From Eledone cirrhosa (Eukaryota), in contig OZ024762.1 in the NCBI GenBank assembly GCA_964016885.1, forward strand, positions 26,660,001-26,724,000: a stretch of 64,000 bases of DNA. The letters are read 5' to 3'. Under the pieces are notes generated by a model. It was not told the DNA's origin. It searched no databases and was given only the letters and a program-made list of their open reading frames with translations. Positions 1,093 through 59,865 of the stretch are shown here, one piece after another; within the stretch, counting starts at the first letter, position 1; each line of letters opens with the position of its first letter. The position numbers and the translations under genes were made by a program.

Positions 1093-2140
<1,048 letters not shown>

Positions 2141-5320: not shown

Positions 5321-6976
5321 TTATTATTATTATTATTACAGTTACATTTATCTTGCTTTATGTTCATACGAGTTGTCACCAAGTCACAACCAGTGACCTC
5401 AAGAGACAACAAGGTCCGCCATGTTCAAGAAAGAACATACATACTCACACATGCTTCTTTAGTGTTTAGACTTGTGATGTACTTATATTGACAGAATCTT
5501 CCTTAGTATATGGGCAGTTCCCATTAGTACTATCTTTTGTATTTCTCCTATACGCGGGTTTCCTGGGATTTGCGATAAGTAATCATTAGACCCCTTAGGT
5601 ATCATTCCCAGAGCGCCTACAACCACTGGTATTGTTTTAGTTCTCAATTTCCACATTTTTCCAATTTCTATCTCCAGGTCCTTATACTTGCTCAATTTTT
5701 CAAATGTTTTTATAGATACATTCTTGTCTATTGGAACAGACATATCAATTAGCAGGCATACCCTCTTTTGAAAGTCTTTCAATATTATATCAGGTCTGTT
5801 TGCATCTATTTTTCGGTCTGTTTGGATGCTAAAGTTCCACAAGATTGAGATGTGATCTTTTTCAAGTATGGGAGGTGGTTGATGCTCCCACCAATTCTTT
5901 TGATGGGGCAGGTCAAAATGCTTACACATTATCCAATGTATGTATTGTGCAGCTCTGTCATGCCTGTTTAGGTATTCGGTTGGAGCTATAGGACTGCACA
6001 TTGAAATTATATGGTCAATGGTCTCTGGTTGTTTTTCGCATACACGGCATAATAGGCAGCACCCATTTTTTATTATGTTGGCTTGGTAATTTTTTGTTGG
6101 CAGACACTGATCTTGTGCCGATATAATCAGTCCTTCAGTCTCCGATTTCAGTCCAGAGGATGCCAACCACTGATGGGTTAAAGTTTTGTCAACATCAGGA
6201 TTGTTAGCTCGCTCTGGGTATTTTCCATACAGAGGCTTTTCTTGCCATTTCTTAGCCAGTTTCTGTAGCAGTTCTTTCTTTGCAGTTACTTTTACCTGTT
6301 TTGCTTTTTCTGTGTTTTCCATTTCAGCAGTAAATGGGACTTCTGAAATTTGTAGTCCATTACTGTATCTTTGTGCATCTTTTGTAATGGAATATGATCT
6401 TTTGATGCTTTCGTGTTTCAAAACGAGTTTGATCATCCAATCATGTGATTCCCTTAGATATGTAGATAATCCAATTGTTGCAGTTTTCAACGCAATGTCT
6501 AATTGGATTAACCCACGTCCTCCTTCTTTCGTAGGGAGATATATTCTATCTATATCTGCCTTAGGGTGATGCATTCTGTGCATGGTTAAGAATTTTCGAA
6601 TTTTTGTATCGAGCCTACGGATCTCTGTGCTTGACCAGTTGATGACATTGTAACTGTAGGTTACTACTGGTATGGCAAGCGTGTTTATGGCATCGATCCT
6701 ATTCCTTGCATTCAATTCCGTTCTTAAGATTGCTCTTACTCTGCGGTAACATTTCATCCTTATCCTTTCCCTCATTGTCGAGTGCTTGATTCCGTCTCCT
6801 TCACAAACACCTAGATATTTGTAAGTTTTTTTCTTGATCAAGTTCTCTTATCACGTTCCCTCGATCAAGATTAATGTCTGAACTCTTCAGCAGCTTTCCT
6901 CTGGTGAACGTTGCTTTGGCGCATTTATCTAGTCCAAACTCCATTTTAATGTCATCACTGAACTGCTTCACAGTGG
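5321..6976 (-). mobile_element. 5'-truncated R4/Dong-type non-LTR retrotransposon (RT C-terminus, CCHC, restriction-like endonuclease); ORF 5483-6841
   Basis: FSDDIKMEFGLDKCA, YKYLG, GGRGL, AQDQ, CRVC..ETIDHIISMC, RHD, NRPDII, KLSKY, VVGALG motifs; 3'UTR ends in (TAA)n. Confidence 0.92.
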
Positions 6977-12500: not shown

Positions 12501-12557
<57 letters not shown>

Positions 12558-12847
12558 AAATAACGAAACGAAATTAAATTTCGTTTCGTTTGTAACTCAC
12601 TTTTGTATGACTGACGCTTAAACAATTAAGTTAAAAAATGTACATCTACATATGCATACTGAAATACTAGTGTGTATATGAATACACACACGTATACATA
12701 TGTAGGTGTACCAAGTCTTTCACTGGTCGCTTTACAGTGAGCGGCCCAGCTATTCTGTATGTAAACACACAGACAAACCGGTTTTTAGAGTCATACTGGT
12801 TTTTCGGGGGAACACCTTCCCCCTATTCTCCAGAAAGCCAGACAAGG

Positions 12848-12892
12848 AACATTGAACTAGTTTCGTTGTTGTTACAACTCATCAGCAATATT
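12848..12892 (-). ncRNA. Type I hammerhead ribozyme (family A, unit 1)
   Basis: aatattg-CTGATGA-gttgt aaca acaac-GAAA-cta-GTT-caatgtt; palindromic ACTAGT stem III. Confidence 0.9.
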
Positions 12893-13316
12893 TACCTATC
12901 TACCGGCCTTTCTGGAGAATTGTAAAAGCACATATCGTTATATGCTTTTTCTATGAAAATTAGTAGTGGGCAGACTAATTTACATAGAGTGTGAGTACGC
13001 ACCGGTTCAGCGGAGACGATAAAAACAAATAACGAAACGAAATTAAATTTCGTTTCGTTTGTAACTCACTTTTGTATGACTGACGCTTAAACAATTAAGT
13101 TAAAAAATGTACATCTACATATGCATACTGAAATACTAGTGTGTATATGAATACACACACGTATACATATGTAGGTGTACCAAGTCTTTCACTGGTCGCT
13201 TTACAGTGAGCGGCCCAGCTATTCTGTATGTAAACACACAGACAAACCGGTTTTTAGAGTCATACTGGTTTTTCGGGGGAACACCTTCCCCCTATTCTCC
13301 AGAAAGCCAGACAAGG

Positions 13317-13361
13317 AACATTGAACTAGTTTCGTTGTTGTTACAACTCATCAGCAATATT
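13317..13361 (-). ncRNA. Type I hammerhead ribozyme (family A, unit 2)
   Basis: Identical to 12848-12892. Confidence 0.9.
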
Positions 13362-14028
13362 TACCTATCTACCGGCCTTTCTGGAGAATTGTAAAAGCAC
13401 ATATCGTTATATGCTTTTTCTATGAAAATTAGTAGTGGGCAGACTAATTTGCATAGAGTGTGAGTACGCACCGGTTCTGCGGAGACGATAAAAACAAATA
13501 ACGAAACGAAATTAAATTTCGTTTCGTTTGTAACTCACTTTTGTATGACTGACGCTTAAACAATTAAGTTAAAAAATGTACATCTACATATGCATACTGA
13601 AATACTAGTGTGTATATGAATACACACACGTATACATATGTAGGTGTACCAAGTCTTTCACTGGTCGCTTTACAGTGAGCGGCCCAGCTATTCTGTATGT
13701 AAACACACAGACAAACCGGTTTTTAGAGTCATACTGGTTTTTCGGGGGAACACCTTCCCCCTATTCTCCAGAAAGCCAGACAAGGAACATTGAACTAGTT
13801 TCGTTGTTGTTACTTTTTTAACTTAATTGTTTAAGCGTCAGTCATACAAAAGTGAGTTACAAACGAAACGAAATTTAATTTCGTTTCGTTATTTGTTTTT
13901 ATCGTCTCCGCTGAACCGGTGCGTACTCACACTCTATGCAAATTAGTCTGCCCACTACTAATTTTCATAGAAAAAGCATATAACGATATGTGCTTTTACA
14001 ATTCTCCAGAAAGGCCGGTAGATAGGTA

Positions 14029-14073
14029 AACATTGCTGATGAGTTGTAACAACCACGAAACTAGTTCAATATT
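14029..14073 (+). ncRNA. Type I hammerhead ribozyme (family A, inverted arm)
   Basis: aacattg-CTGATGA-gttgtaacaaccac-GAAA-cta-GTT-caatatt; one mismatch each in stems I and II. Confidence 0.8.
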
Positions 14074-14527
14074 CCTTGTCTGGCTTTCTGGAGAATAGGG
14101 GGAAGGTGTTCCCCCGAAAAACCAGTATGACTCTAAAAACCGGTTTGTCTGTGTGTTTACATACAGAATAGCTGGGCCGCTCACTGTAAAGCGACCAGTG
14201 AAAGACTTGGTACACCTACATATGTATACGTGTGTGTATTCATATACACACTAGTATTTCAGTATGCATATGTAGATGTACATTTTTTAACTTACACATT
14301 TTTTAACACACATTTTTTAACTTAATTGTTTAAGCGTCAGTCATACAAAAGTGAGTTACAAACGAAACGAAATTCAATTTCGTTTCGTTATTTGTTTTTA
14401 TCGTCTCCGCTGAACCGGTGCGTACTCACACTCTATGCAAATTAGTCTGCCCACTACTAATTTTCATAGAAAAAGCATATAACGATATGTGCTTTTACAA
14501 TTCTCCAGAAAGGCCGGTAGATAGGTA

Positions 14528-14572
14528 AATATTGCTGATGAGTTGTAACAACAACGAAACTAGATCAATGTT
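14528..14572 (+). ncRNA. Family A hammerhead with mutated cleavage triplet (GAT)
   Basis: aatattg-CTGATGA-gttgtaacaacaac-GAAA-cta-GAT-caatgtt; probably inactive. Confidence 0.7.
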
Positions 14573-14797
14573 CCTTGTCTGGCTTTCTGGAGAATAGGGG
14601 GAAGGTGTTCCCCCGAAAAACCAGTATGACTCTAAAAACCGGTTTGTCTGTGTGTTTACATACAGAATAGCTGGGCCGCTCACTGTAAAGCGACCAGTGA
14701 AAGACTTGGTACACCTACATATGTATACGTGTGTGTATTCATATACACACTAGTATTTCAGTATGCATATGTAGATGTACATTTTGTAACTTAATTG

Positions 14798-14942
<145 letters not shown>

Positions 14943-15770
14943 GTCATACTGGTATATATATAGAATAGAAGTTACCGAGATAAGTTAGTCTTATATGTAT
15001 GTTGTAGTAAAAATTTGGTATATATATATATCCAAGGTTTCAAATCAGTCAGTCCTGTTCTAATTTTTTTGGGGGGGTCACTTGTATCGGTATTTTTTAT
15101 TGAACTCTGATGACATCCACGGTTTATAATCACTGATGGCAAATTGTTAAATAAAATGATTTGCTATATATAGCATAACCTGGTTAGACATAATTGTAGT
15201 TATTAAATGCCTTAAACCCTTAAATTCTTTGGATTTTAAACAAACTATAACTATATAATAGCTCTGAGCGATCTCATCATTGTATTAAACAAAAATACAC
15301 CTAGGAAATGAGTAGAATTTACTCTCATTAATACTACTATTATATATATATATAGAAGTAGTAACACAAGAGTTAGTTCACCATACCGAGAACAATTGTT
15401 TCACCTTAGCGGGTCTTGATCCGCTAAGGTGAAACAGCTACTTCTACCAAACTGGTCCCATGGACTGAGTGCTCTACCACTACGGATATTACCTTCCAGT
15501 GTCCTCCCTATATATAGGAAAAGAGTCAGGACCTCGACGGCTGAGCACCGGCCGTTCGACAGCTAGATGTTCGGATCTAGCTGTCGAATAAGACGAATAC
15601 AAGAAACGTCCGCATTCGTTAGTCAGACAAAGCAATTACTGACGAACGAATGCGGACGTTTCTTATATTCGTCTTACTCGGGAAACCTTTGGTAATGAGG
15701 TAATTATATTGTATCGTTTATTATACATTAAATCCTCTGACTTTTTCAATTTTCACGGAAACTTCATTAC

Positions 15771-15819: not shown

Positions 15820-15824
<5 letters not shown>

Positions 15825-16095
15825 AGTATGTATGTATACAGACGTACAGTAGCATGTATATATATACATACAGGCACACATATGTATATGCACGTATCAG
15901 TTTACCGAACATTTATTATAATAAATGTTCGGTAAACTGATACGTACATATATATATGTGTGCCTGTATGTATATATATACATGCTACTGTACGTCTGTA
16001 TACATATATTTATGTACGTATACATACATACTTACATTTAAGTAAGTGCCGTATAAGAGTGAGAAATGAAATTTCGTTTCATTCTATTCCATTTA
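15820..16095. mobile_element. Short fold-back fragment of retrozyme family B
   Basis: tgtatacagacgtacagtagcatg arms inverted around ~15920; ends gagaaatgaaatttcgtttcattctattccattt(AT)n like other family B termini. Confidence 0.75.
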
Positions 16096-16335: not shown

Positions 16336-16822
16336 TACGTTATTCGGGGTTGAATCGGAGGTAACCACAGTAAGTAAGGTACTCAATACATTGCAGAGTA
16401 TAAAAGTTTTAATATAGATGAGATTCTACAGGTCTAGAACTGTTTCATTCTTTAGAAATAATCAGGAATCTGATGATTTCTAAAGAATGAACAGTTCTAA
16501 TCCTGTAGAATCTCATCTATATTAAAAATATATTTTATATATATATATATATTAATTTATTAAAATAACAGATTATTTATTATTATTACTATATATATAT
16601 TATATATATATATATATAAATACATTATAATATAGATGAGATTCTACAGGACTAGAACTGTTTCATTCTTTAGAAATCATCAGAGATTCCTGATGATTTC
16701 TAAAGAAAGAAACAGTTCTAGTCCTGTGGAATCTCATCTATATTAAAACTTTTATACTCTGCAATGTATTGAGTACCTTTCTTACTGTGGTTACCTCCGA
16801 TTCAACCCGGAATAACGTAAAT
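16336..16822. mobile_element. Two fold-back PLE-type 3' ends centred on an HHR (same family as 49718-49768)
   Basis: Palindromes centred at ~16468 and ~16685 with gattc-CTGATGA-tttctaaagaaa-GAAA-cagttctagtcctg; terminus gattcaacccggaataacgta(TA)n. Confidence 0.8.
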
Positions 16823-16980
16823 ATATATTATATATATATATATTATATATATATATATATAATATATATATATTGTATATATATATAATATATATATAAT
16901 ATATATATATATATTATATATATATTATATATATTATATATATATATTATATATATATATTTATTAAAATAACAGATTAA

Positions 16981-17031
16981 AGTTTAAGCAAAGAATCGCT
17001 GCTTTCACCCTTAACGGGATCTTCTGAAACT
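16981..17031 (-). ncRNA. Hammerhead-like ribozyme, variant core CAGAAGA (Naiad 3'UTR)
   Basis: agttt-CAGAAGA-t ccc gttaa ggg t-GAAA-gca gcgattctt tgc-TT-aaact. Confidence 0.7.
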
Positions 17032-17952
17032 AACAAAGTCAATTTGTAAACGCAGAACTGGATATTTCAAAGAACGTTGCAAGCGGAGGAAGATAGGAAG
17101 ACGATATTTTGGTTCGTGGAAACGTTCACAAGCAAAGAACGGGAAAAAACGAACAAAACATCATTAATAGGAGCGGTGAAAAACAATTACGCGCAAAGAC
17201 AGAACCACGTTTATGGTATAAAAGAGGTCGTAGACTAATGTTCTCTTAGGTGGTGCATAGAGACGTTCTCTGGCAATGAACGAAAAAACGAAGATAATAC
17301 GTCATATGTCGTGCGTGAGGAACAATAGCACGCCAAGACAAAACCACGTAAATGGTATAGCAGAAGTCGTAGACTAAAATTCTAACTGGGAGACCAAATG
17401 AATCTCCGCTACAGAGTTAAGAACAAAGTAAATAAATATAATACAGAAGTAATAGAAATAGAAATAAATACATACACGCAAACAAATACGTACATACACA
17501 AGCATACGCAAAACCTTACCATAGGTATACAAAACCACGAACATATAAATGTGTGTGTGTGTATGCGTGTATACAAATAAATAATTATATAAACGTATAA
17601 GAATAAATAAATACGTATATAACAAGCGCACACACATACCTACATATAAATACACGAATGTTCGGAGACGTAAGTCAACTAAAACAAGAAGTACACATAT
17701 ACACACACCCACCATACGTACGAACCTGCATACTCACACAGACGCAAAACTCCCGTATACACATAGCCAAACCCTATGTACCAGTAAATAAAAGTATACG
17801 CCATAACAATCAAAGTTACGTACGAGAAGGTATACGTACCTTCACAAAACATACGGGTAATATATACTTACCTATGCAAATAAGTAAAGGAATAAACAAA
17901 ACATATACTTAGCTCCCACATCAAAACGTAAAATATCCACGTATAGATCGTA

Positions 17953-20030
17953 CTATCCGTTAGGGCATAACGTGGGGCTGTAATACAGGAAAGTTTTGTG
18001 CAATTTATGTTTACAAGCCGAAATTGCCTCAGATTTATTGTTTAAGATGTGGTCTGTGGCGTAGAGTATTTCCAGGGCCTCAGCGGCGCAGAGGTCACAT
18101 GGTCTTTTATTTCCGTTATACGATCTAGCCCTAGCTAGGATCTCCCAGTGTAACTTATATTGGGTGTGGTTGTTTTTTAGACTCCAGATATAAGCTGAAA
18201 GTGACGTCATATTCCTTCTCAGAGGGTAACGGAAAGAATGGGTATGCATGTAAAGACGCTGCTTGAAACTATTGGCGGTTAACCCTATGTAAGCCCTATG
18301 GGACGTGGGTGTTACAAACTTACATTTGTAGACAATGTTACTAGAATGGCATTTCCCGGATAGGGGGCAAACAGCCCGATTCCTACAATTACAGTTAGTA
18401 CTAACTACAGGGTTGCACGTGTTCCTACGGCTAGGTAGTTTACCTAAATTTGAAGCTGTGATGTTATGTGCAAGGTTAGGAGTCGTAGAGTAAGAAATTT
18501 TAATAGTATTTCTATTAAAAATTTTACTATATTTATGTGTAGGGGGAAAATGCTTTGTAATATGGGAAAGAAAGATCTTAGCTAATGGTGTGGCCACCTC
18601 CATATTATATGGTAGGTTATACCAACAAATGCGACGGGATCTATTTCTTCTAGGTCTATTTTCGTGCTTTGTATATGCTACCTTATCGACAAATCCACTT
18701 CGAGCAAGAGCTTCATTGTAATAAGTGGAATGGTCGTTGAAAATAGGCTCGTTGGTGGAAAGACGGCAAAGCCTCAACGAAACGTTTCTTACCAGGTTCT
18801 TGGTTATGCTGGCAGGATGGTTGGAATGCTTACTTATGTAATTAAGCGTATCATTCGGCTTTCTATACGGGTAATACAACCCATTCAATAAATTGAGGGT
18901 AACATCGAGGTAATTAACGACCGAGAGATTGGCCTCAACCTGTATAGAGAGGTTGAAGCCTTTAAAGAAGGCTGTGAGTTCTTTTATGAACCTGTCGCAA
19001 GAACGAGGTCCGCACTTAGTCATGAGACCATCGTCACGGTACAAACCACCGCCCGCGTTGGGGAATTCGTCCTTGATAGAGAAAAGAAGGAAAAGGCCAA
19101 TAAGATCAGTAACCTCCGCAGAGTCACTGGCGCCCATACTCACGTCGAATGGGGTACTATTGGATTTTTTAATCCAAATAGAGTCGTCGAAATTAATCAC
19201 CGACATTCGGGCATTGAGGATGACATCAACTTCGAAATCCTTAACCACTGTGAGTGTTTTAGCGAAATTGATAGCTCTAAGGAAAAGTGGTGAAGTGATG
19301 GACGAGTAATAATTGTTGATGTCGAATTGGATAAAACGGCAATGTTCCTTGTTACATATGCCGTTGAACCAATCAATCACCGCGAAAGAATTGTTCCACA
19401 GTGCAAGAGGGGCCAAACTTCTAATTTCAGGTATAATTCTATCAAGAATCGTTTTACTAAGTTTACCTAAATCGGACTTCGTAGGGTTAATAAGCCGAAT
19501 AGAGGGGTTGTTCGGAAAATTGGATTTGTGATCCTTTAGGGTAAAGTGGGGAGAAATCGGGTCCAGAGGTTCGGTCCGGTCCAGGATGTTGAGATTAGAT
19601 GTGATTTTAAACCCAGCATCGTTGATTTCATTGATGACGCACCGATTAGTTTTACGGTAATCCTTAGTTACAGCATTATGTAGTAGTTGATGGTAAGTAC
19701 TGCGCTCCACTTGATATAGGTTGCCAGTTTTTTCGGAATGGACGTGCACGGCGTTAGAATCCTTAATAGAACGAATTCTATTCTTCAGGTCTCGCTGGAA
19801 GGAATTGCTACTATTCCGAAATTTGATACTCCGAATGAGTTCCAAGACATCATTTTCGAAGTGTAGCAATGCTGGGTTCCACGGGGGGGGGGGGGGGTAT
19901 TATAGGTTTTAAATCCAAATTTATCCTGTTTGTTGTCTGCTTTTCGCGGATTATCGAAATAAAAGGCACGCCAACGCAACCTTTTAATGAACGCGTCTGT
20001 TTTCTGTATCAGGAGTTTTAGGTATGTTTT
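17953..20030 (-). CDS. Naiad-type PLE polyprotein (RT + CNC zinc knuckle + GIY-YIG endonuclease), one frameshift at the G15 run 19883-19897
   Basis: FIKRLRWRAFYF, TLKDHK, IRLINP, FDINNYYSSI, MGASDSAEVTDLIG, GLYRDDGL, YLDVTLNL, SNHP, CNCRNRAVCPLSGKC, IVYKC...YIG, CDLC...CKH. Confidence 0.93.
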
Positions 20031-20700
20031 AATAGAAATACTATTAAAATGTCTTACTCTACGACTCCTAACCTTGCACATAACATCACAGCTTCAAATT
20101 TAGCTAAACTACCTAGCCGTAGGAACACGTGCAACCCTGTAGTTAGTACTAACTGTAATTGTAGGAATCGGGCTGTTTGCCCCCTATCCGGGAAATGCCT
20201 CTCTAGTAACATTGTCAACAAATGTAAGGTTGTAACACCCACGTCCCATAGGGCCTACATAGGGTTAACCGCCAATAGTTTCAAGCAGCGGCTTTACATG
20301 AATACCCATTCTTTTCGTTACCCTCTAAGAAGGAATATGACGTCACTTTCAGCTTATATCTGGAGTCTAAAAGACCACACCCAATATAAGTTACACTGGG
20401 AGATCCTAGCTAGGGCTAGATCGTATAATGGAAATAAAAGACCATGTGACCTCTGCTCCGCTGAGGCCCTGGAAATACTCTACGCCACAGACCACATCTT
20501 AAACAAAAAATCTGAGGCAATTTCGGTTTGTAAACATAAATTGCACAAAACTTTCCTGTATTACAGCCCCACGTTATACCCTAACGGATAGTACGATCTA
20601 TACGTGGATATTTTACGTTTTGATATGGGAGCTAAGTATATGTTTTGTTTATACCATTACTTATTTGCATAGGTAAGTATATATTACCCGTATGCTCATG
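20030..20700 (+). mobile_element. Inverted 3' copy (GIY-YIG region) at the 5' truncation point of the Naiad element
   Basis: ORF 20049-20591 is nearly identical to the C-terminus of 17953-19869, on the opposite strand; typical PLE inverted pLTR. Confidence 0.9.
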
Positions 20701-22110: not shown

Positions 22111-22441
22111 ATAGCAGCCAGGTTTATTCGACATTTGAATTAGCTCAACAAATTAACGGAGCCGAATATATCAAAGGTATATATTGAGTTAGAAACTCAA
22201 AATATATGTGTTCAAATCGTAAGGGACCAGATTCGCTAAGGTGAAAAAATACTAACTATAGACAATAAGGTTTGCCTGACTCAATTTAAGAATATATAAA
22301 GAAAATAAATACAAACTGGAATTGCTATTTTTAGTGTGTAAGTTTGTGAGACGCGCTAAGTTCAGATACCATGTGCGTTGTTATATATACGCACACTATT
22401 CAGTTCCTTAATATACTTAGAAGTGTTTAGGATACTAATTC

Positions 22442-22813: not shown

Positions 22814-22959
<146 letters not shown>

Positions 22960-23091
22960 GATAAATCTACCAAGAGTTTACGGTAGTGTCCAATCCGTAT
23001 GAAGAACTCAATGTATTCCGGATATCATGGAAAGAAGAGATGTAATAAAAATCCAATTTCGGTGAAAGATAAACGGTATACAGAGTCAAGA

Positions 23092-23493
23092 TAAAATATT
23101 AAACAAATAATGAACAAACAATTCCTTATATTAAACAAAAAAAGTTCACTATTTAACGATCGTTTCTAGGGTATATATGTGTTATAGTTGGTATGCATAT
23201 TTAACAGATCTATGTACAAAATTATACAAAATTATACAAATTATCAAGATTAAATATACATACCTAACTCATATATACGCCGTCTTCATTATTTCTGAAG
23301 ACGGCGTATATATGAGTTAGGTATGTATATTTAATCTTGATAATTTGTATAATTTTGTATAATTTTGTACATAGATCTGTTAAATATGCATACCAACTAT
23401 AACACATATATACCCTAGAAACGATCGTTAAATAGTGAACTTTTTTTGTTTAATATAAGGAATTGTTTGTTCATTATTTGTTTAATATTTTAT
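23092..23493. repeat. ~400-bp near-perfect palindrome of a Naiad-type 3' end
   Basis: Arms mirror around ~23288 (cgccgtcttca / tgaagacggcg). Confidence 0.9.
23285..23439 (+). ncRNA. Hammerhead-like ribozyme with ~115-nt stem II
   Basis: ttcattattt-CTGAAGA-[long hairpin cggcgtatatatg...catatatacccta]-GAAA-cgatc-GTT-aaatagtgaa; 10-bp stem I, palindromic ACGATCGT stem III. Confidence 0.75.
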
Positions 23494-32837: not shown

Positions 32838-35983
<3,146 letters not shown>

Positions 35984-38030: not shown

Positions 38031-38125
<95 letters not shown>

Positions 38126-38338
38126 CGTTTCTGAATTTGTTTAGCAAGATTCTTTATCTGAAATCGTGTGTTGAAACCGATATTGTTATACTTTGGGAGG
38201 GTCGTGTTGCCAATAAGAAACACACGCACCAGTTGCTTTCACTTCAATTTAATTTAATATATATTTATAAATTTACAAATTTATAAATTTCTGGTTGGTT
38301 GGTTGGTTCCACAACCAGATAGTTGTTTATATATATAT

Positions 38339-38383
38339 AGTCATAGTTCTTTCGTCACACACTCTGTGACCTCTTCAGTGACT
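38339..38383 (-). ncRNA. Minimal hammerhead-like motif in PLE pLTR
   Basis: agtca-CTGAAGA-g gtcac agagtgt gtgac-GAAA-gaa-CTA-tgact. Confidence 0.7.
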
Positions 38384-38680
38384 GGGGATTTCTTTCTTCG
38401 TTTCTGTGCCTTTCCTTTCTTCTATCCTACGCCATTTTGTTTGTGTGTGGGTTGCGTGCTCAGTTTGCGCATGCGCCACATCCGGGTGTCTGTGTGTGTT
38501 TGTGTTCATTTTTCTATTTTTCTATTTATATTTGTTTGTTTATTTATTTATTTATTGTTGGTTGGTTGTTTGTTCTATGTGTGTGTGTGTTTTCATTTTG
38601 TCTTGTGTGTGTTTTCATTTTGTGTGTGTTTTCAATTGTAAGTTGTTTGTTCTATGTGTGTGTGTGTTTTCATTTTGTCC

Positions 38681-41600
38681 TTAATTGTAAGTTGTGATGT
38701 TGCTGTTCCACTCATATTTTCTATTTAATTTTGGTTTTAATTCTTTTATGCTTACTGCCTCTGTAATTTGCCTAAACATTGCGTCTTTCTTGTGTGTGGA
38801 TTCTATTTTTATTTCTATGCTCTCTAATTTACCCCTGTGTTCTATCTTAGCATGTTGGTAGAGCACAGATGATTCTTTACTATCTTGGAGGTCTCGCCAG
38901 TGTTCATTTATTCGTTCCCCTATACTACGAGCTGTCTCACCGATGTACACTATATTTTTGTTTCTACATTGTCCTTCAGTACATCTTATGCTATATACTA
39001 CATTTCTAGTTTTACAGTTAATATGGGGGCTTATTTTACAGGTTATACATTTCTTATCTATACATGAGGGTCTTTGGAACGGGTATGTCTTGCTAATAAG
39101 TGTTTTTACGGAGGTACCAGGTCTTTCTACTATCTTAATATTGAGATTATGTTTCTTTAGGGCCCTTCTAAATTTGTAGGCTAGTTCGCCTCTAGGGGTT
39201 GTATTGATGAACATTACACTCTGGTATTTATTGCTATCATACCATGAGTTTATTCTATTGGCCTTGTTCTTAGTTCTTTCTATTCTATTCCAAAATTTGC
39301 TCCTATACAAGGGGCAGGTCCCATTTATGTCATTATTTACCATTTTTTCCCATTTGGTTCTGGCTCCTTTATACACTCTGATTCTATCTCTCTGATTGTA
39401 GCCAGAGAACTGCATACGGTGGATGAAGTGTTGTATGTGTCTCTCTAGTTCTTCGGGGTTGCACATGCGGGACACATTTCTCATCACCCGTATCAAATCC
39501 GCAATCAGTATGTTGATTTTGGTATGGTCCGAAATGGCCGAGTTTCGGTGGATCAGATGTTTGGAAGTCATGGGTTTGGCATAATGGGAATGGAGGATTT
39601 GTTTTTGGTTGTTAATAGTATCTAACCAGAGCTCTGTGTCTAGTACAGGTAATCGATGGTTGGGGTGTCTACTTGGGTAGTCTATAGTAACTCTAATGCT
39701 CTGGTGGATGGAGTTTGCTATTTGCTGGATGCTTTCCATTGTGTTTTTCTCTGGTTCCTGACTGTTCTTTAGTGGGGGTGTCTTAACTACGATGTTTATA
39801 TCATCTACGTAGCGGGAGTACATTATCAGGGTTAAGCTGTCTTCTAATTGTTCTTTAAGTTTTTTTTTAAGTCTACTGTCCCACCATACCATGAACAAGT
39901 TAGCTATGTCGCCTGCAATGCTAACACCAATGGCTGCTCCTTCCTCTTGGGCATATGTTTTACCATTAAATTTGAACATATGTTCCTTAAGGGTTAATTT
40001 TATGCTGGCCCCTACCGCATGTGCAATCATTTTCTTCAGTTCATCGTGGTTTTCGGGTGTCCGTATGGCTCTGGTCCACCCGTTCCATCTATCTGTGTGG
40101 GTTTTCTTGGCCATTGAGGTAATGGTAGGTGGTCTGCCTCTTGCTGGTCTTGTAGGGCACAGGTTGCTAAGGTCATAAGTGTCTAGGTAACTATTACTAT
40201 GGGTAAGCTTAAGTAGAAGTCCCAGCTCACTGGTATCAATCCCACGGAACTCAACCTTGCTCTCGCTGATCATTTCGACGCATTTCTCCACAGCAAAATC
40301 CACGTCAATAGATGGATACAGGGACACAACATCCATACTGCCTATTATGCAGTTTGTTAGGTCCCCAGATCGGTTACCCGCGCCGATTCTGCTGAGGAGG
40401 TCCTCCGTGCTGTCACACACATCTGGGGACATCTCAATGATGGGGCGTATGATCAGGGAGAGGAAGTAGGACAGTCTGTAGTTACTAGCAATGTTAGCCC
40501 CACAGACTGGCCGTGTTGGTGGTCCCGCGACAGGGTCCCAGCCCGTTTTATGGTCTTTTCGAAGCCCATACAACGCCGGCACGTCATTGTTCCAGGCCTG
40601 GAAGTTGTTGGCAGTCCTTTTGTTGGGCTGCATTATATTTGTCCACATCACCATATGGGCATTGAGGGTTTTTTCTCTATCCTCATGCTCCTGTGGTGTT
40701 ACCTCTCTTGTGTTAGTGATGTGGGGTTGCATTGCCTGGATGTAGTTTGGCAGGCTGTCAACCGACATTCTGCCAGACTTGTCTGTTGGAAAGCATGCTA
40801 TCTCTCCATTACGCGAGCGCTGCATGAGCTTACGCAAGCCATTTGCAGATTCTTCTCCCAGTTGCTGGGCCTCTATTCTATTATGCTTCTTGCTATACTG
40901 TTCTATAATATTTCTAAGTTCGGATTTAGCTATACTAAATTGTGCTTCTGTTTGTTCATCGACCTGCGACGGCAACTGCGTGCGTTTGTTAAATGGCAAA
41001 GTCGTGGCGTGGACTCGTCGTAGGTCGAATGATTTATCGGAGGGGTTATAAAACGGAGAGTTCCAGGCTGCTGCTTTATGTGTACTAGTGCTATTGTTAG
41101 TTGTGTTGTTTCTATTTCCACCAACAGCAGCAGCCTCAGCTTCATGGTTGTTTCTATGTCTCTCATAATTACTCCTGTCTCTTTCCACTGGCTCAATGTT
41201 GTTATCTACCCTATTTTGTGTGTCTGTGTGTTCGTCTTGGTTATTCTCTTTGTCCTTAGTCTCCCTACTCCTTTTAATCCTATTAGTTTCTCTTATTTCT
41301 CTGATTTCTGTGCTACTGTCATTACTTGTTTTCTGTGTCTGTGTGTTTGTTAAGATTGTAGTGGTGGTGAGAGGCATTGAATGTGTGTGTGTTGTTGTTG
41401 TTGATGTGTGTTGTTGTTGATGTGTGTTGTTGTCTCCGTGTGTGTGTGTGTTATCGTTGTTGTGTGTGTTGTTATTGTTGTTTGTGTTTGCGTGTCTGTT
41501 GTTGTTGTATCTGGGTATGTTGCTGTTGTTGTTGTTGTTGATGTGTGTGTTGTTGTTATTGTTGTCTCCGTGTGTGTTGTTATTGTTGTTTGTGTCTGCG

Positions 41601-41712
41601 TGTCTGTTGTATCTGGGTATGTTGCTATTGTTGGTGTTGTATCTGGGTATGTTGCTATTGTTGGTGTTGTATCTGGGTATGTTGCTATTGTTGTTGTTAT
41701 TGTTGTTTGTGT
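38681..41712 (-). CDS. Uninterrupted PLE RT + GIY-YIG ORF (first genuine in-frame Met at ~41377)
   Basis: PTDKSG, LYGLRKDHK, PPTRPV, SMDVVSLYPSI, EGAAIG, YSRYVDDI, LPVLD, C-x4-C-x2-C linker, NVVYSIRC..YIGETARSIGERINEH. The first ~25 aa of the ORF-track call are antisense of the inverted arm. Confidence 0.93.
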
Positions 41713-42286
41713 AAATATAGTGTACATAGGTGAGACAGCTCGTAGTATAGGGGAACGAATAAATGAACACTGGCGAGACCTCCAAGATAGTAAAGAATCA
41801 TCTGTGCTCTACCAACATGCTAAGATAGAACACAGGGGTAAATTAGAGAGCATAGAAATAAAAATAGAATCCACACACAAGAAAGACGCAATGTTTAGGC
41901 AAATTACAGAGGCAGTAAGCATAAAAGAATTAAAACCAAAATTAAATAGAAAATATGAGTGGAACAGCAACATCACAACTTACAATTAAGGACAAAATGA
42001 AAACACACACACACATAGAACAAACAACTTACAATTGAAAACACACACAAAATGAAAACACACACAAGACAAAATGAAAACACACACACACATAGAACAA
42101 ACAACCAACCAACAATAAATAAATAAATAAATAAACAAATATAAATAGAAAAATAGAAAAATGAACACAAACACACACAGACACCCGGATGTGGCGCATG
42201 CGCAAACTGAGCACGCAACCCACACACAAACAAAATGGCGTAGGATAGAAGAAAGGAAAGGCACAGAAACGAAGAAAGAAATCCCC

Positions 42287-42331
42287 AGTTACTGAAGAGG
42301 TCACAGAGTGTGTGACGAAAGAACTATGACT
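42287..42331 (+). ncRNA. Minimal hammerhead-like motif in the inverted pLTR
   Basis: agtta-CTGAAGA-ggtcac agagtgt gtgac-GAAA-gaa-CTA-tgact. Confidence 0.7.
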
Positions 42332-42482
42332 ATATATATATAAACAACTATCTGGTTGTGGAACCAACCAACCAACCAGAAATTCATAAATTTGTAAATT
42401 TATAAATATATATTAAATTAAATTGAAGTGAAAGCAACTGGTGCGTGTGTTTCTTATTGGCAACATGACCCTCCCAAAGTAT

Positions 42483-42528
<46 letters not shown>

Positions 42529-42539: not shown

Positions 42540-42608
<69 letters not shown>

Positions 42609-42749
42609 AGATAAATCTACCAAAATATACGGTAGTGTCCAATCCATTTGAAGAACTCAATGTAATCCAAATATCATGAAAAGAGAAGATGTATTCAAAA
42701 ATGTTTTCGATGAAAATCACAGGAAAACAGAGTCAAGATAAATTGCCTT

Positions 42750-44025
42750 TTTAATAACATAGTTTATAAATGTAAAATCAGCACTAAGGGCTCAACTTAT
42801 TCATATATAGGAGCTACTTCTAACCAATTTAAAGTAAGATTTAATACCCACACACACAGTTTTAAAAATGCCACATTAGCTAATACAACATCCTTAGCTG
42901 AAATAATTAATAATTATAGAAAAAAGAATATCGATTATAATCTGACTTGGAGTGTGCTCAAAAGGGCCACCCCTTATCAAAATAACAGATATTAGTGTAG
43001 ATTATGTTCCCCGGAACGTTTTGAAATCTAAGGATATCCTATTAAATAAGCGACAAGAATTAATTATATCGTGCAATCATAGAATTAGAAGAACTTTCAA
43101 ATATTATAAACTTAATTAATATACACTTATATTTTACAAATTATTATAATTAGTTTTTTTTTATTTAGTTAACCTATAATTAGTATTTTACTACTGAGAA
43201 CTTCATAATTTTATTTCCCTTTTACAGCTATCTTTTCCTAAAATTAATACCTATAAGTATACATATAAACTATTTTAATTTCCTGTTATGAATCTAAATA
43301 CCTTGTAGTCTCTATAAGTTTGTTATTTCTCACTAATACATTTATCCCCCCAAAAATATTTATCTTCGTTTTTAACAACATTCTTTAATAACATCTAACA
43401 CTTATTTATCACATCTATATGAATTAATATAAATTTATCCCTATAAGTATACCTACCAATTAAATTAATTTAATTTCTTTTTATAGATCTAAATTCCTTA
43501 TGTTTTAAATAAGACTGGTATTTCTCACAAACACATTTATCCTAAAGTTTTATTCTCCTTCGATTTTAACATTAGCATTATTCTTTAAAAACATCAAATT
43601 TTCGTGTACCTTTCATCGGCTTGACCTCTTTTCATCCACAAAGTAATCTTTTCATTCAAAATATTCTTTCCATTCAAAACTGAAGTCTGCATTCCTCTAC
43701 GCCTAAATTAAATTTCTACTAATACTATTCTATCAACTTGACCACTTACTACTTTTCTATTGGTCAATTCAAAACCTGTTCCCAAACAGACCTATTATAT
43801 TAAATCATTGTTGGTTTTTTTCAATACACAAATATCATTATTTCTGAAGACAGAATATATATGTGTAGGTATGTATATTCCCTCTGATAGTTTGTAAAAT
43901 TGTTATATAGATCTATATGATATACATACCAACACACACATATATATCCTAGAAACAATCGTAAAATGATGAATTTTTTAATATAAGGAACTATTTCTTT
44001 GTTTTTATTCATTGTTTTTATTAAT
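42750..44025 (+). pseudogene. Degenerate Naiad GIY-YIG C-terminus plus 3'UTR
   Basis: IVYKCKISTKGSTYSYIGATSNQFKVRFNTHTHSF..WSVLKRATPY..CRLC..CNH at 42755-43118. Confidence 0.8.
43835..43972 (+). ncRNA. Hammerhead-like ribozyme with ~100-nt stem II (relative of 23285-23439)
   Basis: tcattattt-CTGAAGA-cagaatatatatgtgt...acacacatatatatccta-GAAA-caatc-GTA-aaatgatga. Confidence 0.72.
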
Positions 44026-44269
44026 TTATATATATATAATAGTTTTAATATAGATGAGATTATACAGGACTAGAACTGCTTCAATCTTTAGAAATCATCA
44101 GGAATCTGGGTATCCAAAAATAAAGGTGGTATATATAGTTCTTTTCTGGTGGTAGGAGAGGGTGAGGAGTGGGATGGGTAGAGGACATTGGTTGATAGAA
44201 AAGGGAATTCATTAAAAGCTAATTCTTTAAAGCTATAATTTATATTGAGAGTGACAAAGGGCGACCTTT

Positions 44270-48593: not shown

Positions 48594-48595
<2 letters not shown>

Positions 48596-49414
48596 AGTAT
48601 GTACACGTACATACATATATGTATACAGACGTACAGTAGTATGTATATATATATATATATAAATACATGCACACATATATACCTGTACGTATGGATTCAC
48701 CGAACATTTATTATAATGCTCGATGTGTTTGTAAACAAACATCCCCTATTAAGCCGTAGTGTCTCGCAACCATTTTTGCTCGTTTGTTCAACACTGACAA
48801 AGGAACGTTGTACTAGTTTCAAGCTTATTAGCTATCGTCAGCAACGTATACCTTCCTGCCAGATTGTTGAACGTATATACTTACCTTATGCATATTAACG
48901 TCTGAGTAGCCCAATTTGCATATCGAGTGGGTCAATCGGCCGGGTGCACCGAAAACGATAAACGGAAAAAATTAAACGAAATTTCTTTTCCCACTCTTAG
49001 TACGGCTGTTACATAAATATAAGTATGTACACGTACATACATATATGTATACAGACGTACAGTAGTATGTATATATATATACATACATGCACACATATAT
49101 ACATGTACGTATGGATTCACCGAAAATTTATTATAGTGCTCGATGTGTTTGTAAACAAACATCCCGTATTAAGCCGTAGTGTCTAGCAACCATCGTTGCT
49201 CGTTTGTTCAACACTGACAAAGGAACGCTGTACTAGTTTCAAGCTTATTAGCTATCGTCAGCAACGTATACCTTCCTGCCAGCTTGTTGAACGTATATAC
49301 TTACCTTATGGATATTAACGGCTGAGTAGCCCAGTTTGCATATCGAGTGGGTTAATCGGCCGGGTGCACCGAAAACGATAAATGGAAAAAATGAAACGAA
49401 ATTTCATTTCCCAC
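48594..49414 (-). mobile_element. Retrozyme-like array, family B2: two ~420-bp units with HHRs at 48805-48847 and 49225-49267
   Basis: acgttg-CTGACGA-t agct aata agct t-GAAA-cta-GTA-caacgt; period 420. Confidence 0.88.
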
Positions 49415-49717
49415 ATCCATATTCACATTTACATTCACATTCACATATATGTGTGTGTTTGTAAATGTGTCTGTTGACATCTGGAATATAGCTTAAGAGA
49501 AATTTGAAGATAATAATATGATAGTCACCCAATATTGTTAACTGGTCTATCGAATTCTTTTGGACTTTGTCACTCTAAATATAAATTATAGCTTTAAAGA
49601 ATTAGCTTTTAATGAATTCCCTTTTTATCAACCAATGTCCTCTACCCATCCCACTCCCCACCCTCTCCTACCACCTGAAAAGACCTATATATATACCACC
49701 TTTATTTTTGGATACCC

Positions 49718-49768
49718 AGATTCCTGATGAGTTCTAAAGAATGAAACAGTTCTAGTCCTGTAGAATCT
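49718..49768 (+). ncRNA. Type I hammerhead ribozyme in a PLE-type 3' end (49560-49852)
   Basis: agattc-CTGATGA-gttc taaa gaat-GAAA-cag ttctagtc ctg-TA-gaatct; degenerate minus copy at ~44055-44108. Confidence 0.88.
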
Positions 49769-49870
49769 CAACTATATTAAAATTTTTATACTCTGCTATG
49801 TATTGAGCACCTTACTTATTGTGGTTACCTCCGATTCAACCCGGAATAACGTATATATATAATATATATA

Positions 49871-51105: not shown

Positions 51106-51189
<84 letters not shown>

Positions 51190-51193
<4 letters not shown>

Positions 51194-52593
51194 GTAAGTA
51201 TGCATGTATACGTACATACATATATGTATACAGACGTACAGTAGCATGCACATATATATATATATATATACATATATACATACATATGCATACAGGTACA
51301 CATACATCTATGCACGTATCAGTTTAGCGGCGCTAACGTCGCTTTGTTCGTTTGTCAACAAACTGAACAGCCTTAATTTATGCCATACGGTGTTAAGGCA
51401 ACCACGTCACCTTTTTGTTCAACACTGACACAGGAACGATGTACTAGTTTCAAGCTTGTTAGCTATCATCAGCACCGTTTACCCATCTGCCAGATAGTTG
51501 AACGTTCGAAAGTATATACTTTCCTTATGAAAATTAACGGCTGAGCAGCCTAATTTGCATATTGAGTGAGTTAAATCGGTCAGGCATACCGAAAACGATA
51601 AATTGAAACAAAATGAAAACGAAATTTCATTTCTCACTCTTAGTATGGCACTTACTTAAATGTAAGTATGCATGTATACGTACATACATATATGTATACA
51701 GACGTACAGTAGCATGCACATATATATATATATATATATACATATATACATACATATGCATACAGGTACACATACATCTATGCACGTATCAGTTTAGCGG
51801 CGCTAACGTCGCTTTGTTCGTTTGTAAACAAACTGAACAGCCTGAATTTATGCCATACGGTGTTAAGGCAACCACGTCACCTTTTTGTTCAACACTGACA
51901 CAGGAACGATGTACTAGTTTCAAGCTTGTTAGCTATCATCAGCACCGTTTACCCATCTGCCAGATAGTTGAACGTTCGAAAGTATATACTTTCCTTATGA
52001 AAATTAACGGCTGAGCAGCCTAATTTGCATATTGAGTGAGTTAAATCGGTCAGGCATACCGAAAACGATAAATTGAAACAAAATGAAAACGAAATTTCAT
52101 TTCTCACTCTTAGTATGGCACTTACTTAAATGTAAGTATGCATGTATACGTACATACATATATGTATACAGACGTACAGTAGCATGCACATATATATATA
52201 TATATATACATATATATACTTTCGAACGTTCAACTATCTGGCAGATGGGTAAACGGTGCTGATGATAGCTAACAAGCTTGAAACTAGTACATCGTTCCTG
52301 TGTCAGTGTTGAACAAAAAGGTGACGTGGTTGCCTTAACACCGTATGGCATAAATTCAGGCTGTTCAGTTTGTTTACAAACGAACAAAGCGACGTTAGCG
52401 CCGCTAAACTGATACGTGCATAGATGTATGTGTACCTGTATGCATATGTATGTATATATGTATATATATATATATATATGTGCATGCTACTGTACGTCTG
52501 TATACATATATGTATGTACGTATACATGCATACTTACATTTAAGTAAGTGCCATACTAAGAGTGAGAAATGAAATTTCGTTTTCATTTTGTTT

Positions 52594-52596
<3 letters not shown>
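51190..52596. mobile_element. Retrozyme-like array, family B1: ~469-bp units (HHR minus at 51435-51479 and 51905-51949; inverted arm HHR plus at 52252-52296)
   Basis: aacggtg-CTGATGA-t agct aaca agct t-GAAA-cta-GTA-catcgtt; periods 468 and 470; inversion at ~52213. Confidence 0.9.
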
Positions 52597-52636
<40 letters not shown>

Positions 52637-54108: not shown

Positions 54109-54126
54109 TATATATATATATATATA

Positions 54127-54907
<781 letters not shown>

Positions 54908-54952
54908 GTAATAATAATGAATTTGAAGACTAAAATCCAATTTATTTTAATA

Positions 54953-55008
<56 letters not shown>

Positions 55009-56077: not shown

Positions 56078-56284
56078 AGTTTGTTTACAAACACACCGAG
56101 CATTAAAATAAATGTTTGGTGAATCCATACGTACATATATATATATATGTGCGTGCTTGTATGTATATATATATACATACTACTGTACGTCTGTATACAT
56201 ATATGTATGTACGTATATATACTTATATTTAAGTAACAACCGTACCAAGTCTGGGAAATGAAATTTCGTTTCATTTTTTCCGTT

Positions 56285-56285
<1 letters not shown>
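56078..56285 (+). mobile_element. Family B2 3'-terminal fragment
   Basis: Ends gggaaatgaaatttcgtttcattttttccgttt(AT)n. Confidence 0.8.
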
Positions 56286-56315
<30 letters not shown>

Positions 56316-59599: not shown

Positions 59600-59865
59600 A
59601 TATATATATATATAATATATATATATAATATATATAGATATTTATAATATAATATATATATATATATAATATATATGATATATATATATATATATAGTAA
59701 TAATAATAAATTTGAAGACTAAAATTCAAAGAGGGCTCGATAAGGATAAATATATATCAAATATATAAGAACTGTAGAGCAAATATTTATTAAAATAACA
59801 GATTATTCAAATAACAGATTAAAGTTTAAGTAACACTTTAATCTGTTATTTTAATAAATGTATAT

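What the first reader, a model, noticed from the sequence alone, without database searches (positions are those of the whole stretch)
13780..13860. Retrozyme arrays have the same tails-out inversion architecture as neighbouring Penelope elements
Seen: arrays A (flip ~13813), B1 (~52213), B2 (~54238) and the 15820-16095 fragment each consist of a body plus an inverted copy attached at the 5' truncation point. The coding PLEs show the same at 20030, 33461 and 41713, and all lie in (TA)n. Established: inverted partial-tandem structure is a PLE hallmark, and PLEs are the proposed mobilisers of animal retrozymes. Inference: this is direct structural evidence of trans-mobilisation by a TA-targeting PLE.
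Basis: partly seen in the sequence, partly recalled or inferred. Interest (0 to 1): 0.75.

Follow-up and report, generated by a model that had tools for sequence, protein, structure and literature searches.

The report
Retrozyme insertions carry Penelope integration signature
Small non-coding, self-cutting RNA repeats in what looks like an octopus genome were pasted in with the same back-to-back layout, the same two fixed start points and the same TA-repeat targets as the neighbouring Penelope retrotransposons, which is good indirect evidence that they borrow the Penelope enzyme.

Summary
The four inversions are real. Arrays A (469-bp unit) and B (420/470-bp units, homologous to A) are hammerhead tandem repeats without ORFs, i.e. 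non-LTR retrozymes. In 4 of 6 insertions, two 5'-truncated arms are joined head-to-head with their 3' ends in (TA)n. A stronger signature was missed. All 10 retrozyme arms end at one of two fixed, homologous sites (short S, long L, 56-69 nt apart). Every inverted insertion has one S end and one L end (4 of 4), as do the PLE and PLE-type families here (10 of 10 further scorable pairs). This is the PLE 'tail at one end only'. Best model: a PLE RT/endonuclease cuts both strands of (TA)n and primes at S and L on one circular or multimeric RNA. The partner PLE is unidentified, so the evidence is strong but indirect. The PLE-retrozyme link has been proposed since 2020 and argued in a 2026 preprint; I found no report of this insertion anatomy.

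The parts
12553..13813 (-). Retrozyme A, left arm, 2.7 units of 469 bp; 3' end at long site L (monomer position 332) in (TA)n; 5' end in hammerhead helix II (position 11); intact type I hammerheads at 13354 and 12885
13814..14799 (+). Retrozyme A, right arm, two units plus about 18 nt, with a 30-nt stutter at 14280-14312; 3' end at short site S (position 264) in (TA)n; hammerheads at 14036 and 14535, both mutated
15821..15923 (-). Retrozyme B fragment, left arm, S end in TA (with a ~20-nt internal deletion, so assignment is slightly less clean)
15916..16095 (+). Retrozyme B fragment, right arm, L end in TA; junction at an 8-nt palindrome of the monomer
48594..49414 (-). Retrozyme B0, 420-bp unit, 19 nt short of two units; S end in TA; no same-family inverted arm; joins head-to-head, with no TA between, to the segment leading into hammerhead element C
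49415..49852 (+). Candidate heterologous partner arm: 47-nt palindrome (49424-49469), unassigned DNA, then PLE-type element C (full type I hammerhead at 49724) ending at its L site in TA
51189..52219 (-). Retrozyme B1 left arm, 2.2 units of 470 bp, S end in TA
52213..52598 (+). Retrozyme B1 right arm, 0.8 unit, L end in TA; 7-nt microhomology at the junction
54126..54233 (-). Retrozyme B2 left arm, about 110 nt, L end in TA
54241..54805 (+). Retrozyme B2 right arm, 1.3 units, S end in TA
56079..56286 (+). Solo retrozyme B fragment, L end, TA on both sides
16961..20026 (-). Hydra-like PLE H1, nearly full length with a frameshift near 19880; S end in TA
   Evidence: motifs as defined in PMC8557442
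20027..20714 (+). Inverted H1 arm; 3' end lost, abuts a diverged H1 copy (20698-22109, minus strand)
32839..35980 (.). Hydra-like PLE D head-to-head pair: S arm 32839-33461 (-), 45-bp fold-back 33458-33500, long arm 33515-35980 (+) with a SINE at 35083-35275 and a truncated L tail
38124..41712 (-). Neptune/Nematis-like PLE E, open reading frame of more than 900 codons, L end in TA
41713..42487 (+). Inverted E arm, S end in TA, 5 mismatches in 774 nt against the body
1153..1369 (.). E mini pair, S (left) | L (right), TA on both sides
16338..16819 (.). Two element-C mini pairs (L|S at 16338-16535; S|L at 16619-16819) around an H1 micro pair (S|L at about 16553-16589)
22957..23491 (.). D pair, L (left) | S (right), 397-bp 98.7% palindrome
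42606..44030 (.). D pair in which the L arm (42606-42742) is only the tail and stops within about 3 nt of the S site; S arm 42743-44030
54908..54954 (.). H1 micro pair, L (left, about 32 nt) | S (right, 13 nt); the arms do not overlap in sequence
59697..59859 (.). H1 mini pair, L (left) | S (right)

Best explanation
A and B are non-autonomous non-LTR retrozymes inserted by the RT plus GIY-YIG endonuclease of a (TA)n-targeting Penelope-like element. SHOWN in the sequence: non-coding hammerhead units with a shared fold; two fixed 3' ends per family; one S and one L end in every scorable head-to-head pair; 5' ends scattered and never at the ribozyme cut; both arms of one insertion are of the same sequence variant. 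INFERRED: the endonuclease cuts both strands of the self-complementary (TA)n tract; one 3'-OH primes cDNA at L and the other at S, both internal to the RNA unit and each at or just after a conserved hairpin; the template is one circular or uncleaved multimeric RNA, so cDNA can run for more than one unit; the two cDNA ends are joined head-to-head, blunt, by microhomology or at a short palindrome. This is twin priming with two fixed start sites. Some near-symmetric junctions may also involve cDNA fold-back. The arrays arrive as multimers at integration and are not built later by local amplification. The partner PLE family is not identified.
For: Ends: 10 of 10 retrozyme arms end at S or L (A 264/332; B0-type 242/302-303; B1-type 286/341-344, one S call complicated by a deletion), and the sites align between A and B. 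Random ends never clustered this tightly in 200,000 trials of 10 ends, and did so in 274 of 200,000 trials of 6. The ends avoid the 12-21-nt internal TA runs of the B monomers, so they are not set by annealing to the target, as in vitro for the anole PLE (PMC11167929). Pairs: one S + one L in 4 of 4 retrozyme pairs and 10 of 10 scorable pairs of families E (2), H1 (3), C (2) and D (3); 0.5^14 = 6e-5 if ends were chosen independently. 'Tail at only one end' is the described PLE pattern (PMC8557442 Fig. 2 legend; PMC3846280). The anole PLE cuts and extends both strands, starts at two internal sites and is predicted to be a dimer. In two H1 micro pairs the S arm is not contained in the L arm, and in D 42606 the L arm stops at the S site: both need priming on RNA at two sites. 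Target: 10 of 10 retrozyme 3' ends are in TA, vs 1 of 5 LINE and 2 of 11 SINE ends (Fisher p=1e-4). Hydra and Neptune/Nematis-like PLEs sit in the same tracts. One template: in 3 of 3 inverted B insertions the arms are each other's closest match (97.8-100%, vs 82-97% between insertions).
Against: No coding PLE 3' region in the window resembles A or B beyond low-complexity or hammerhead-core matches, unlike the pLTR homology reported in Xenopus. One window only. 3 of 17 head-to-head pairs could not be scored; one of them (D 61150|61348) has a right arm that ends inside the tail without TA and fits the rule badly. The micro pairs were found after the rule was framed, with 12-20-nt AT-rich arms. 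The published tails are 30-40 nt; these are 56-136 nt. In vitro the anole PLE showed no strand preference between its two start sites, which does not explain a strict one-S-one-L rule. Same-variant arms are equally expected from cDNA fold-back or gene conversion. Inversion rate against LINEs alone is not significant (p=0.06). No expression, circularity or cleavage data.
Confidence: 0.72

Rival explanations
1. Cis mobilisation: A and B are the tandem hammerhead repeats at the 3' end of an unseen autonomous PLE, and these copies are just its 5'-truncated ends. The PLE signature would then be trivial and would not show trans-mobilisation.
For: PLEs with hammerheads in tandem are described (PMC7229834). 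Families C, I and M here look like truncated PLE 3' ends with the same hammerhead-S-L order. The longest arm is only 1,261 nt. No partner PLE was found.
Against: None of 10 arms leaves the unit sequence. Units are exact head-to-tail repeats of up to 2.7 copies, with at least three diverged variants keeping one fold (circular MFE z of -4 to -11; 21 of 113 consensus pairs show a two-sided change among 4 sequences). The coding PLEs E, H1 and D show one hammerhead-like core upstream of S, not a tandem.
Confidence: 0.12
2. PLE machinery, but the second arm is made by fold-back (self-priming) of a single cDNA and is then trimmed by the endonuclease at S or L.
For: Near-symmetric junctions at short palindromes (15916-15923; 23290; 1232) and short fold-backs at 33458-33500 and 49424-49469. 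Arms of one insertion are of the same variant. Self-priming and endonuclease-mediated resolution are the published suggestions (PMC3846280; PMC8557442).
Against: In the H1 micro pairs and D 42606 the S arm cannot be copied from the L arm. A, B1 and B2 junctions are strongly asymmetric. This rival changes the mechanism but keeps the PLE conclusion, and it may apply to some insertions.
Confidence: 0.25
3. A LINE enzyme (the TA-inserting APE-type family or another) copies retrozyme RNA, and L1-style twin priming on a multimer mimics the overlap of the arms.
For: An APE-type LINE lies in TA at both ends (59995-60330). L1 twin priming yields oppositely oriented cDNAs, also in passenger RNAs. LINEs were left open as candidates in PMC7229834.
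Against: 0 of 6 LINE and 0 of 11 SINE copies here are head-to-head. In L1 the first cDNA starts at the poly(A) end and the second at spread internal sites with a median overlap of 12 bp; here both starts are internal, fixed, and patterned exactly like the PLE families. No retrozyme arm has a poly(A) or repeat tail of its own.
Confidence: 0.07
4. DNA-level origin or artefact: satellites amplified locally and inverted by break repair in fragile (TA)n, or chimeric reads and misassembly.
For: TA tracts of 14 bp or more cover 9.5% of the window (91 tracts). B1 arms are identical. The 2026 preprint allows local amplification. PLE inversions are known to trouble assemblies.
Against: Flanks are not mirrored in 4 of 4 cases. 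Ends fall on two fixed sites in six separate insertions of five sequence variants. Arms of older pairs have diverged (95.8-98%). Only hammerhead- or PLE-type sequences show the head-to-head pattern in a label-blind scan (one small pair at 53633-53810 is unclassified).
Confidence: 0.06

Closest known systems
Metazoan non-LTR retrozymes (Cervera and de la Pena 2020, PMC7229834; passages and Discussion read)
   Same: Non-coding tandem units, each with a type I hammerhead; highly paired predicted circle; PLEs named as the likely mobiliser; circRNA proposed as template for tandem cDNA.
   Different: Units here are 420-470 nt (170-400 reported). In the passages I saw there is no account of insertion ends, inversions or target sites. 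No RNA data here.
Li, Clavereau and Pollet 2026, bioRxiv 10.64898/2026.07.22.740005 (main text read, parts 1-4 of 5; supplements closed)
   Same: Concludes that animal retrozymes are non-autonomous PLE derivatives.
   Different: Its evidence is co-occurrence in 32 of 35 species and pLTR homology in Xenopus; its text has no occurrence of 'tail' or 'junction' and does not use inversions. It lets arrays grow by local amplification. Here there is no pLTR homology but there is an integration signature, and it points to multimers made at insertion.
EN+ PLE insertion anatomy: Hydra, Neptune/Nematis, Naiad (Craig et al. 2021, PMC8557442, passages and section 11; Arkhipova et al. 2013, PMC3846280, passages)
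   Same: 5' truncation, inverted 5'-truncated copy head-to-head, tail at one end only, hammerheads, (TA)n targets for Hydra and Naiad; trans action on pLTR-flanked cargo reported in a rotifer.
   Different: Tails here are 56-136 nt, not 30-40. The pattern is seen on protein-free multimeric hammerhead repeats. Non-overlapping micro pairs favour two RNA-primed starts over self-priming or endonuclease trimming.
Anole Poseidon PAc in vitro (Frangieh et al. 2024, PMC11167929, parts 1-2 of 4 read)
   Same: Both strands cut and extended; two internal RT start sites that define the tail; no homology to the target needed; hammerhead upstream of the starts.
   Different: Different clade and target (ATT, not TA repeat). 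No strand bias between the two starts in vitro, whereas the pairs here are one S and one L.
Non-autonomous Chlamys PLEs such as MRC1 (PMC8557442 and bioRxiv 10.1101/2022.05.23.493040, passages)
   Same: [quoted passage not shown]
   Different: They share 3' sequence with autonomous partners and the clade lacks canonical hammerheads; A/B have hammerheads and no partner found.
L1 twin priming (PMC12016303, passages)
   Same: Two oppositely oriented cDNAs, one from each target strand, also on passenger RNAs.
   Different: Poly(A)-primed first strand, variable second site, little overlap; here two fixed internal sites and overlaps of up to about 1 kb.

Membership tests
Metazoan non-LTR retrozyme (A, B) | Head-to-tail tandem units of a few hundred bp | tested here: met
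   469, 420 and 470 bp units, up to 2.7 copies
Metazoan non-LTR retrozyme (A, B) | Type I hammerhead in each unit, at least two consecutive | tested here: met
   Core plus helices I and II and a short palindromic helix III in A (Rfam HH9 at E 4.5e-5, below gathering score). B cores by pattern, alignment and fold; the strict scan did not list them
Metazoan non-LTR retrozyme (A, B) | No protein coding, no LTRs | tested here: met
   No PLE or LINE hit in the arrays; long frames over B are low-complexity or family-less
Metazoan non-LTR retrozyme (A, B) | Highly self-paired unit RNA | tested here: met
   66-67% paired, circular MFE z -11.0, -4.2, -10.7 against 25 shuffles each; 21 of 113 pairs with a two-sided change in 4 sequences
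Metazoan non-LTR retrozyme (A, B) | Self-cleavage and circular RNA in vivo | not testable with these tools
   No RNA data
PLE-mobilised non-autonomous element (A, B) | Inverted 5'-truncated copy joined head-to-head | tested here: met
   4 of 6 insertions; 10 of 18 for coding PLE families, tallied by hand
PLE-mobilised non-autonomous element (A, B) | [quoted passage not shown] | tested here: met
   10 of 10 ends at S or L; 4 of 4 pairs one S + one L; tail longer than published
PLE-mobilised non-autonomous element (A, B) | Same target as local PLEs, (TA)n | tested here: met
   10 of 10 vs 18 of 26 for coding PLE families; not exclusive, 3 of 16 LINE/SINE ends
PLE-mobilised non-autonomous element (A, B) | 3' sequence shared with an autonomous partner | tested here: inconclusive
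   None among the 3' regions in this window; the rest of the genome was not available
PLE-mobilised non-autonomous element (A, B) | Mobilisation in trans shown experimentally | not testable with these tools
   Needs protein and RNA
Hydra clade PLE (H1, D) | RWK-like motif, DKT for DKG, CxCX5C linker, C-terminal GIY-YIG | tested here: met
   H1 has RWR, EKT, CxCX5C and YIG against the definition; D and other fragments match H1 by tblastn
Hydra clade PLE (H1, D) | Placement in an RT phylogeny with named Hydra elements | not tested
   No named references among the hits
Neptune/Nematis PLE (E) | RT, CX2-5CxxC linker, C-terminal GIY-YIG with CCHH | tested here: met
   RVT_1 E 3.6e-4; DKS, YVDD, CX4CxxC, YIG; two Cys inside the core and later His read. 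Which of the two clades was not tested
LINE-dependent SINE-like element (A, B) | Fixed 3' terminus with poly(A) or simple-repeat tail or a LINE-derived 3' end | tested here: not met
   Ends are internal to the unit at two sites; no similarity to the window's LINEs in the self-comparison

The most novel reading that the evidence does not exclude
PLE 'inverted copy plus tail at one end' insertions are made by fixed two-site twin priming: a dimeric RT/endonuclease primes from both strands of a cut (TA)n at sites S and L. Retrozyme circles have kept exactly these two structured start sites as their cis signal, so their arrays are multi-lap cDNAs of a circle. Two traces would then be direct records. 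First, arms that stall near the end of a lap (A right +18 nt with a stutter one lap earlier, B0 -19 nt, element F about +30 nt; 3 of 7 multi-unit arms, p about 0.05). Second, a single chimeric insertion at 48594-49852 in which a retrozyme S arm and a PLE-type L arm were laid down by one enzyme complex.
Probability: 0.35. Interest if true: 0.75.

Novelty: new member of a known kind. Interest (0 to 1): 0.5.

Why it matters
Which enzyme moves animal retrozymes has rested on co-occurrence and, in frogs, on pLTR homology. An integration signature is a different kind of evidence: it speaks to how each copy got there and not only to ancestry, and it argues against arrays growing by local amplification. 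It also names the two RNA sites where copying starts, which turns the question into a defined in vitro assay. The one-S-one-L rule and the non-overlapping micro pairs give a countable test between the published models for PLE inversions. It supports an expected answer, so it is useful more than surprising.

Tried and rejected
Searching for a partner PLE by sequence: A, B0 and B1 were aligned to 20 other regions on both strands. Scores with z of 4-9 were TA/CA low-complexity or hammerhead-core matches where inspected (4 alignments shown). Folding the S-L regions of seven families or variants gave no fold shared between retrozymes and coding PLEs. Rfam gave mostly microRNA look-alikes from TA repeats and a sub-threshold HH9 match for A (150 of 225 rows shown). 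Pfam missed H1 and most LINE fragments. PDB sequences gave R2 for 5486-6847 (E 4e-4) and nothing for 50210-50764, so the labels 'CR1-like' (49950-50912), 'R4-like' (30797-31845), 'RTE', 'Tx1-like' and 'SINE' are recalled from motifs; only the AP-endonuclease or RT nature of 27992-30102, its relative 1-653 and 59995-60330 was shown. The protein Atlas gave no result. Pairs from single-copy families (I 22110|22790, M 2390|3499, N 53633|53810, G 56318|57131) also have unequal ends but were left out of the count, because S and L cannot be defined independently for them. Tails-in pairs around a TA tract (SINE 23517|23876; F 57334|58597) were treated as separate insertions. Priming by microhomology to TA was rejected because the ends avoid internal TA runs. 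Literature searches found no paper on inverted or tailed retrozyme insertions; the library lacks most subscription papers (for example Arkhipova 2006, Evgen'ev and Arkhipova 2005, not seen), and supplements were not read, including Fig. S9 of PMC7229834 and those of the 2026 preprint.

Full report
Setting. The window is 33.8% GC, and TA tracts of 14 bp or more cover 9.5% of it. The best named relative of one PLE protein is from Octopus vulgaris (66% identity), so an octopod source is likely (inference). I viewed about 56 of the 64 kb as raw sequence; 26000-31600 and 39000-41200 were covered only by scripts and ORF lists.

The arrays. A is a 469-bp unit. B has 420- and 470-bp variants and is homologous to A. 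Each unit holds a type I hammerhead with a long helix I and a short palindromic helix III. Units fold alike: 66-67% paired as circles, z -4 to -11, and 21 of 113 consensus pairs show a two-sided change among four sequences (few sequences, so supporting only). There are six insertions: A, B0 (48594), B1, B2, the 15821 fragment and a solo piece at 56079. They meet the sequence definition of non-LTR retrozymes; expression and cleavage were not testable.

The observation. Four of six insertions are two 5'-truncated arms joined head-to-head. Junctions differ: near blunt (A), 7-nt microhomology (B1), 6-7 unmatched nt (B2), an 8-nt palindrome (15916-15923). The ten 5' ends are spread over the unit and none is at the ribozyme cut, so the template was a circle or an uncleaved multimer. 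Flanks are not mirrored. The coding PLE cases are real but less tidy than stated. 41712 is clean. At 20026 the right arm has lost its end. At 33461 there is a 45-bp fold-back and a jump, and the right arm ends against another PLE.

Why the stated argument is not enough. Human L1 makes oppositely oriented twin cDNAs in 18-22% of insertions and in 3 of 23 processed pseudogenes (PMC12016303, passages). In this window an AP-endonuclease LINE lies in TA on both sides and 2 of 11 SINE 3' ends are in TA. Inversions are 4 of 6 for retrozymes, 10 of 18 for coding PLE families (hand tally: E 2/4, H1 4/7, D 4/5, other Hydra-like fragments 0/2), 0 of 6 for LINEs (p=0.06) and 0 of 17 with SINEs (p=0.0017). 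Several control labels are recalled from motifs.

The stronger signature. All ten retrozyme 3' ends fall on two sites, S and L, 56-69 nt apart, which align between A and B. S lies in or at a small hairpin and L just after a second hairpin, both kept in A and B. The ends avoid the long internal TA runs of B. Families E, H1, C and D also have two fixed ends (59, 89, 68 and 136 nt apart), downstream of a hammerhead or hammerhead-like core. Among 17 head-to-head pairs of multi-copy families, 14 could be scored and all 14 have one S and one L end: retrozymes 4, E 2, H1 3, C 2, D 3. The three left out are H1 16961|20714 (end lost), C 44041|44260 (partner's end unknown) and D 61150|61348 (right arm ends inside the tail, a poor fit). 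C has no ORF in the window, so its PLE status is inferred. This is the PLE pattern of an inverted copy with a tail at one end only (PMC8557442; PMC3846280), and the anole PLE makes its tail from two internal RT starts while cutting and extending both strands (PMC11167929). Loss of S-S or L-L pairs as unstable palindromes is possible, but near-perfect S-L palindromes of 400-770 bp survive here.

Mechanism. Two H1 micro pairs have S arms that are absent from their L arms, and the D arm at 42606-42742 is only the tail and stops at S. These need two priming events on RNA and do not follow from copying one cDNA. In 3 of 3 inverted B insertions both arms are of the same variant, although five variants occur in the window, which suggests one template per event. 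Best reading: twin priming at two fixed sites by a PLE enzyme on a self-complementary (TA)n target. Fold-back probably contributes at some junctions. The micro pairs are short, AT-rich and were found after the rule was framed; the 13-mer marking H1's S end occurs 7 times in the window, each at an H1-related place.

The partner. H1 and D have Hydra motifs, and Hydra families mostly insert in (TA)n. E is Neptune/Nematis-like with an open frame, and its arms are as alike (99.4%) as those of A and B1. None shares 3' sequence with A or B. One site may be a chimera: B0's S arm joins, with no TA and through a 47-nt palindrome, to a segment leading into element C, which ends at L in TA. The 150 nt after the junction are unassigned, so independent insertion is about as likely.

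Prior work. PLEs were proposed as mobilisers in PMC7229834 (passages and Discussion) and PMC7761336 (passages). The 2026 preprint argues PLE origin from co-occurrence and Xenopus pLTR homology, without ends, tails or inversions. Opposite-strand hammerhead pairs near truncated PLEs were noted in PMC4209133 (passages). Non-autonomous Chlamys are known. PMC6431247, PMC8969392 and PMC8490949 (passages) add nothing on retrozyme ends. Eight searches found no description of inverted or tailed retrozyme insertions; subscription papers and supplements were not seen.

Verdict. Observation largely real. New members of a known kind with a new type of supporting evidence. Interest 0.5.

Noticed in passing
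window 48594-49852: Possible chimeric insertion: retrozyme B0 (S end) joined head-to-head, with no TA and through a 47-nt palindrome, to a segment leading into hammerhead element C (L end).
   Followed up: partly
window 14030-14570: Four of the six private substitutions of A's right arm fall in its two hammerheads, one at the conserved U before the cut. It is the only retrozyme arm with two hammerheads on the plus strand; the two-hammerhead arms on the minus strand keep intact cores. Unexplained; it might reflect selection against cutting a plus-strand transcript.
   Followed up: no
window 14280-14312 and 13814: A 30-nt stutter and the arm's 5' stop lie at the same unit position, about 18 nt past S, one lap apart.
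   Followed up: partly
window 57334-57988 and 58248-58597: Element F: non-coding unit of about 625 nt with a full type I hammerhead (57660), one lap plus about 30 nt, TA on both sides; a diverged copy faces it tail-to-tail. Possibly a third retrozyme family.
   Followed up: partly
window 52732-53599 and 56318-57131: Element G: non-coding, TA-flanked, about 1.4 laps of a ~610-nt unit with hammerhead half-cores, plus a diverged head-to-head pair.
   Followed up: partly
window 23295-23430, 37872-37915, 3418-3460: Unusual hammerhead-like folds at PLE-type 3' ends: family D with a helix II of about 120 nt; H1 with a core change at the second position in its three copies; element M with another change at that position.
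   Followed up: partly
window 22109/22110 and 35980/35983: Head-to-tail joins between different families without TA (H1-like copy into element I's tail; H1 into D's tail): template jumps or later deletions.
   Followed up: no
window 22110-22790, 2224-3499, 53633-53810: Further head-to-head pairs of single-copy families (I with a full hammerhead at 22450; M; N, unclassified), each with unequal ends.
   Followed up: partly
window 23517-23876 and 59995-60330: Two SINE copies facing tail-to-tail across one TA tract, and an AP-endonuclease LINE fragment with TA on both sides: TA is also used by non-PLE elements.
   Followed up: yes
window 41380-41712 and 26200-26520: Asparagine/threonine-rich repeat stretches at the N-terminus of PLE E and in the first ORF of the LINE at 25950; asparagine-rich inserts are described for rotifer PLEs.
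   Followed up: no
window 15355-15770, 1040-1096, 63450-63590: Further TA-flanked hairpin-rich non-coding pieces with hammerhead-like half-cores (family K).
   Followed up: no
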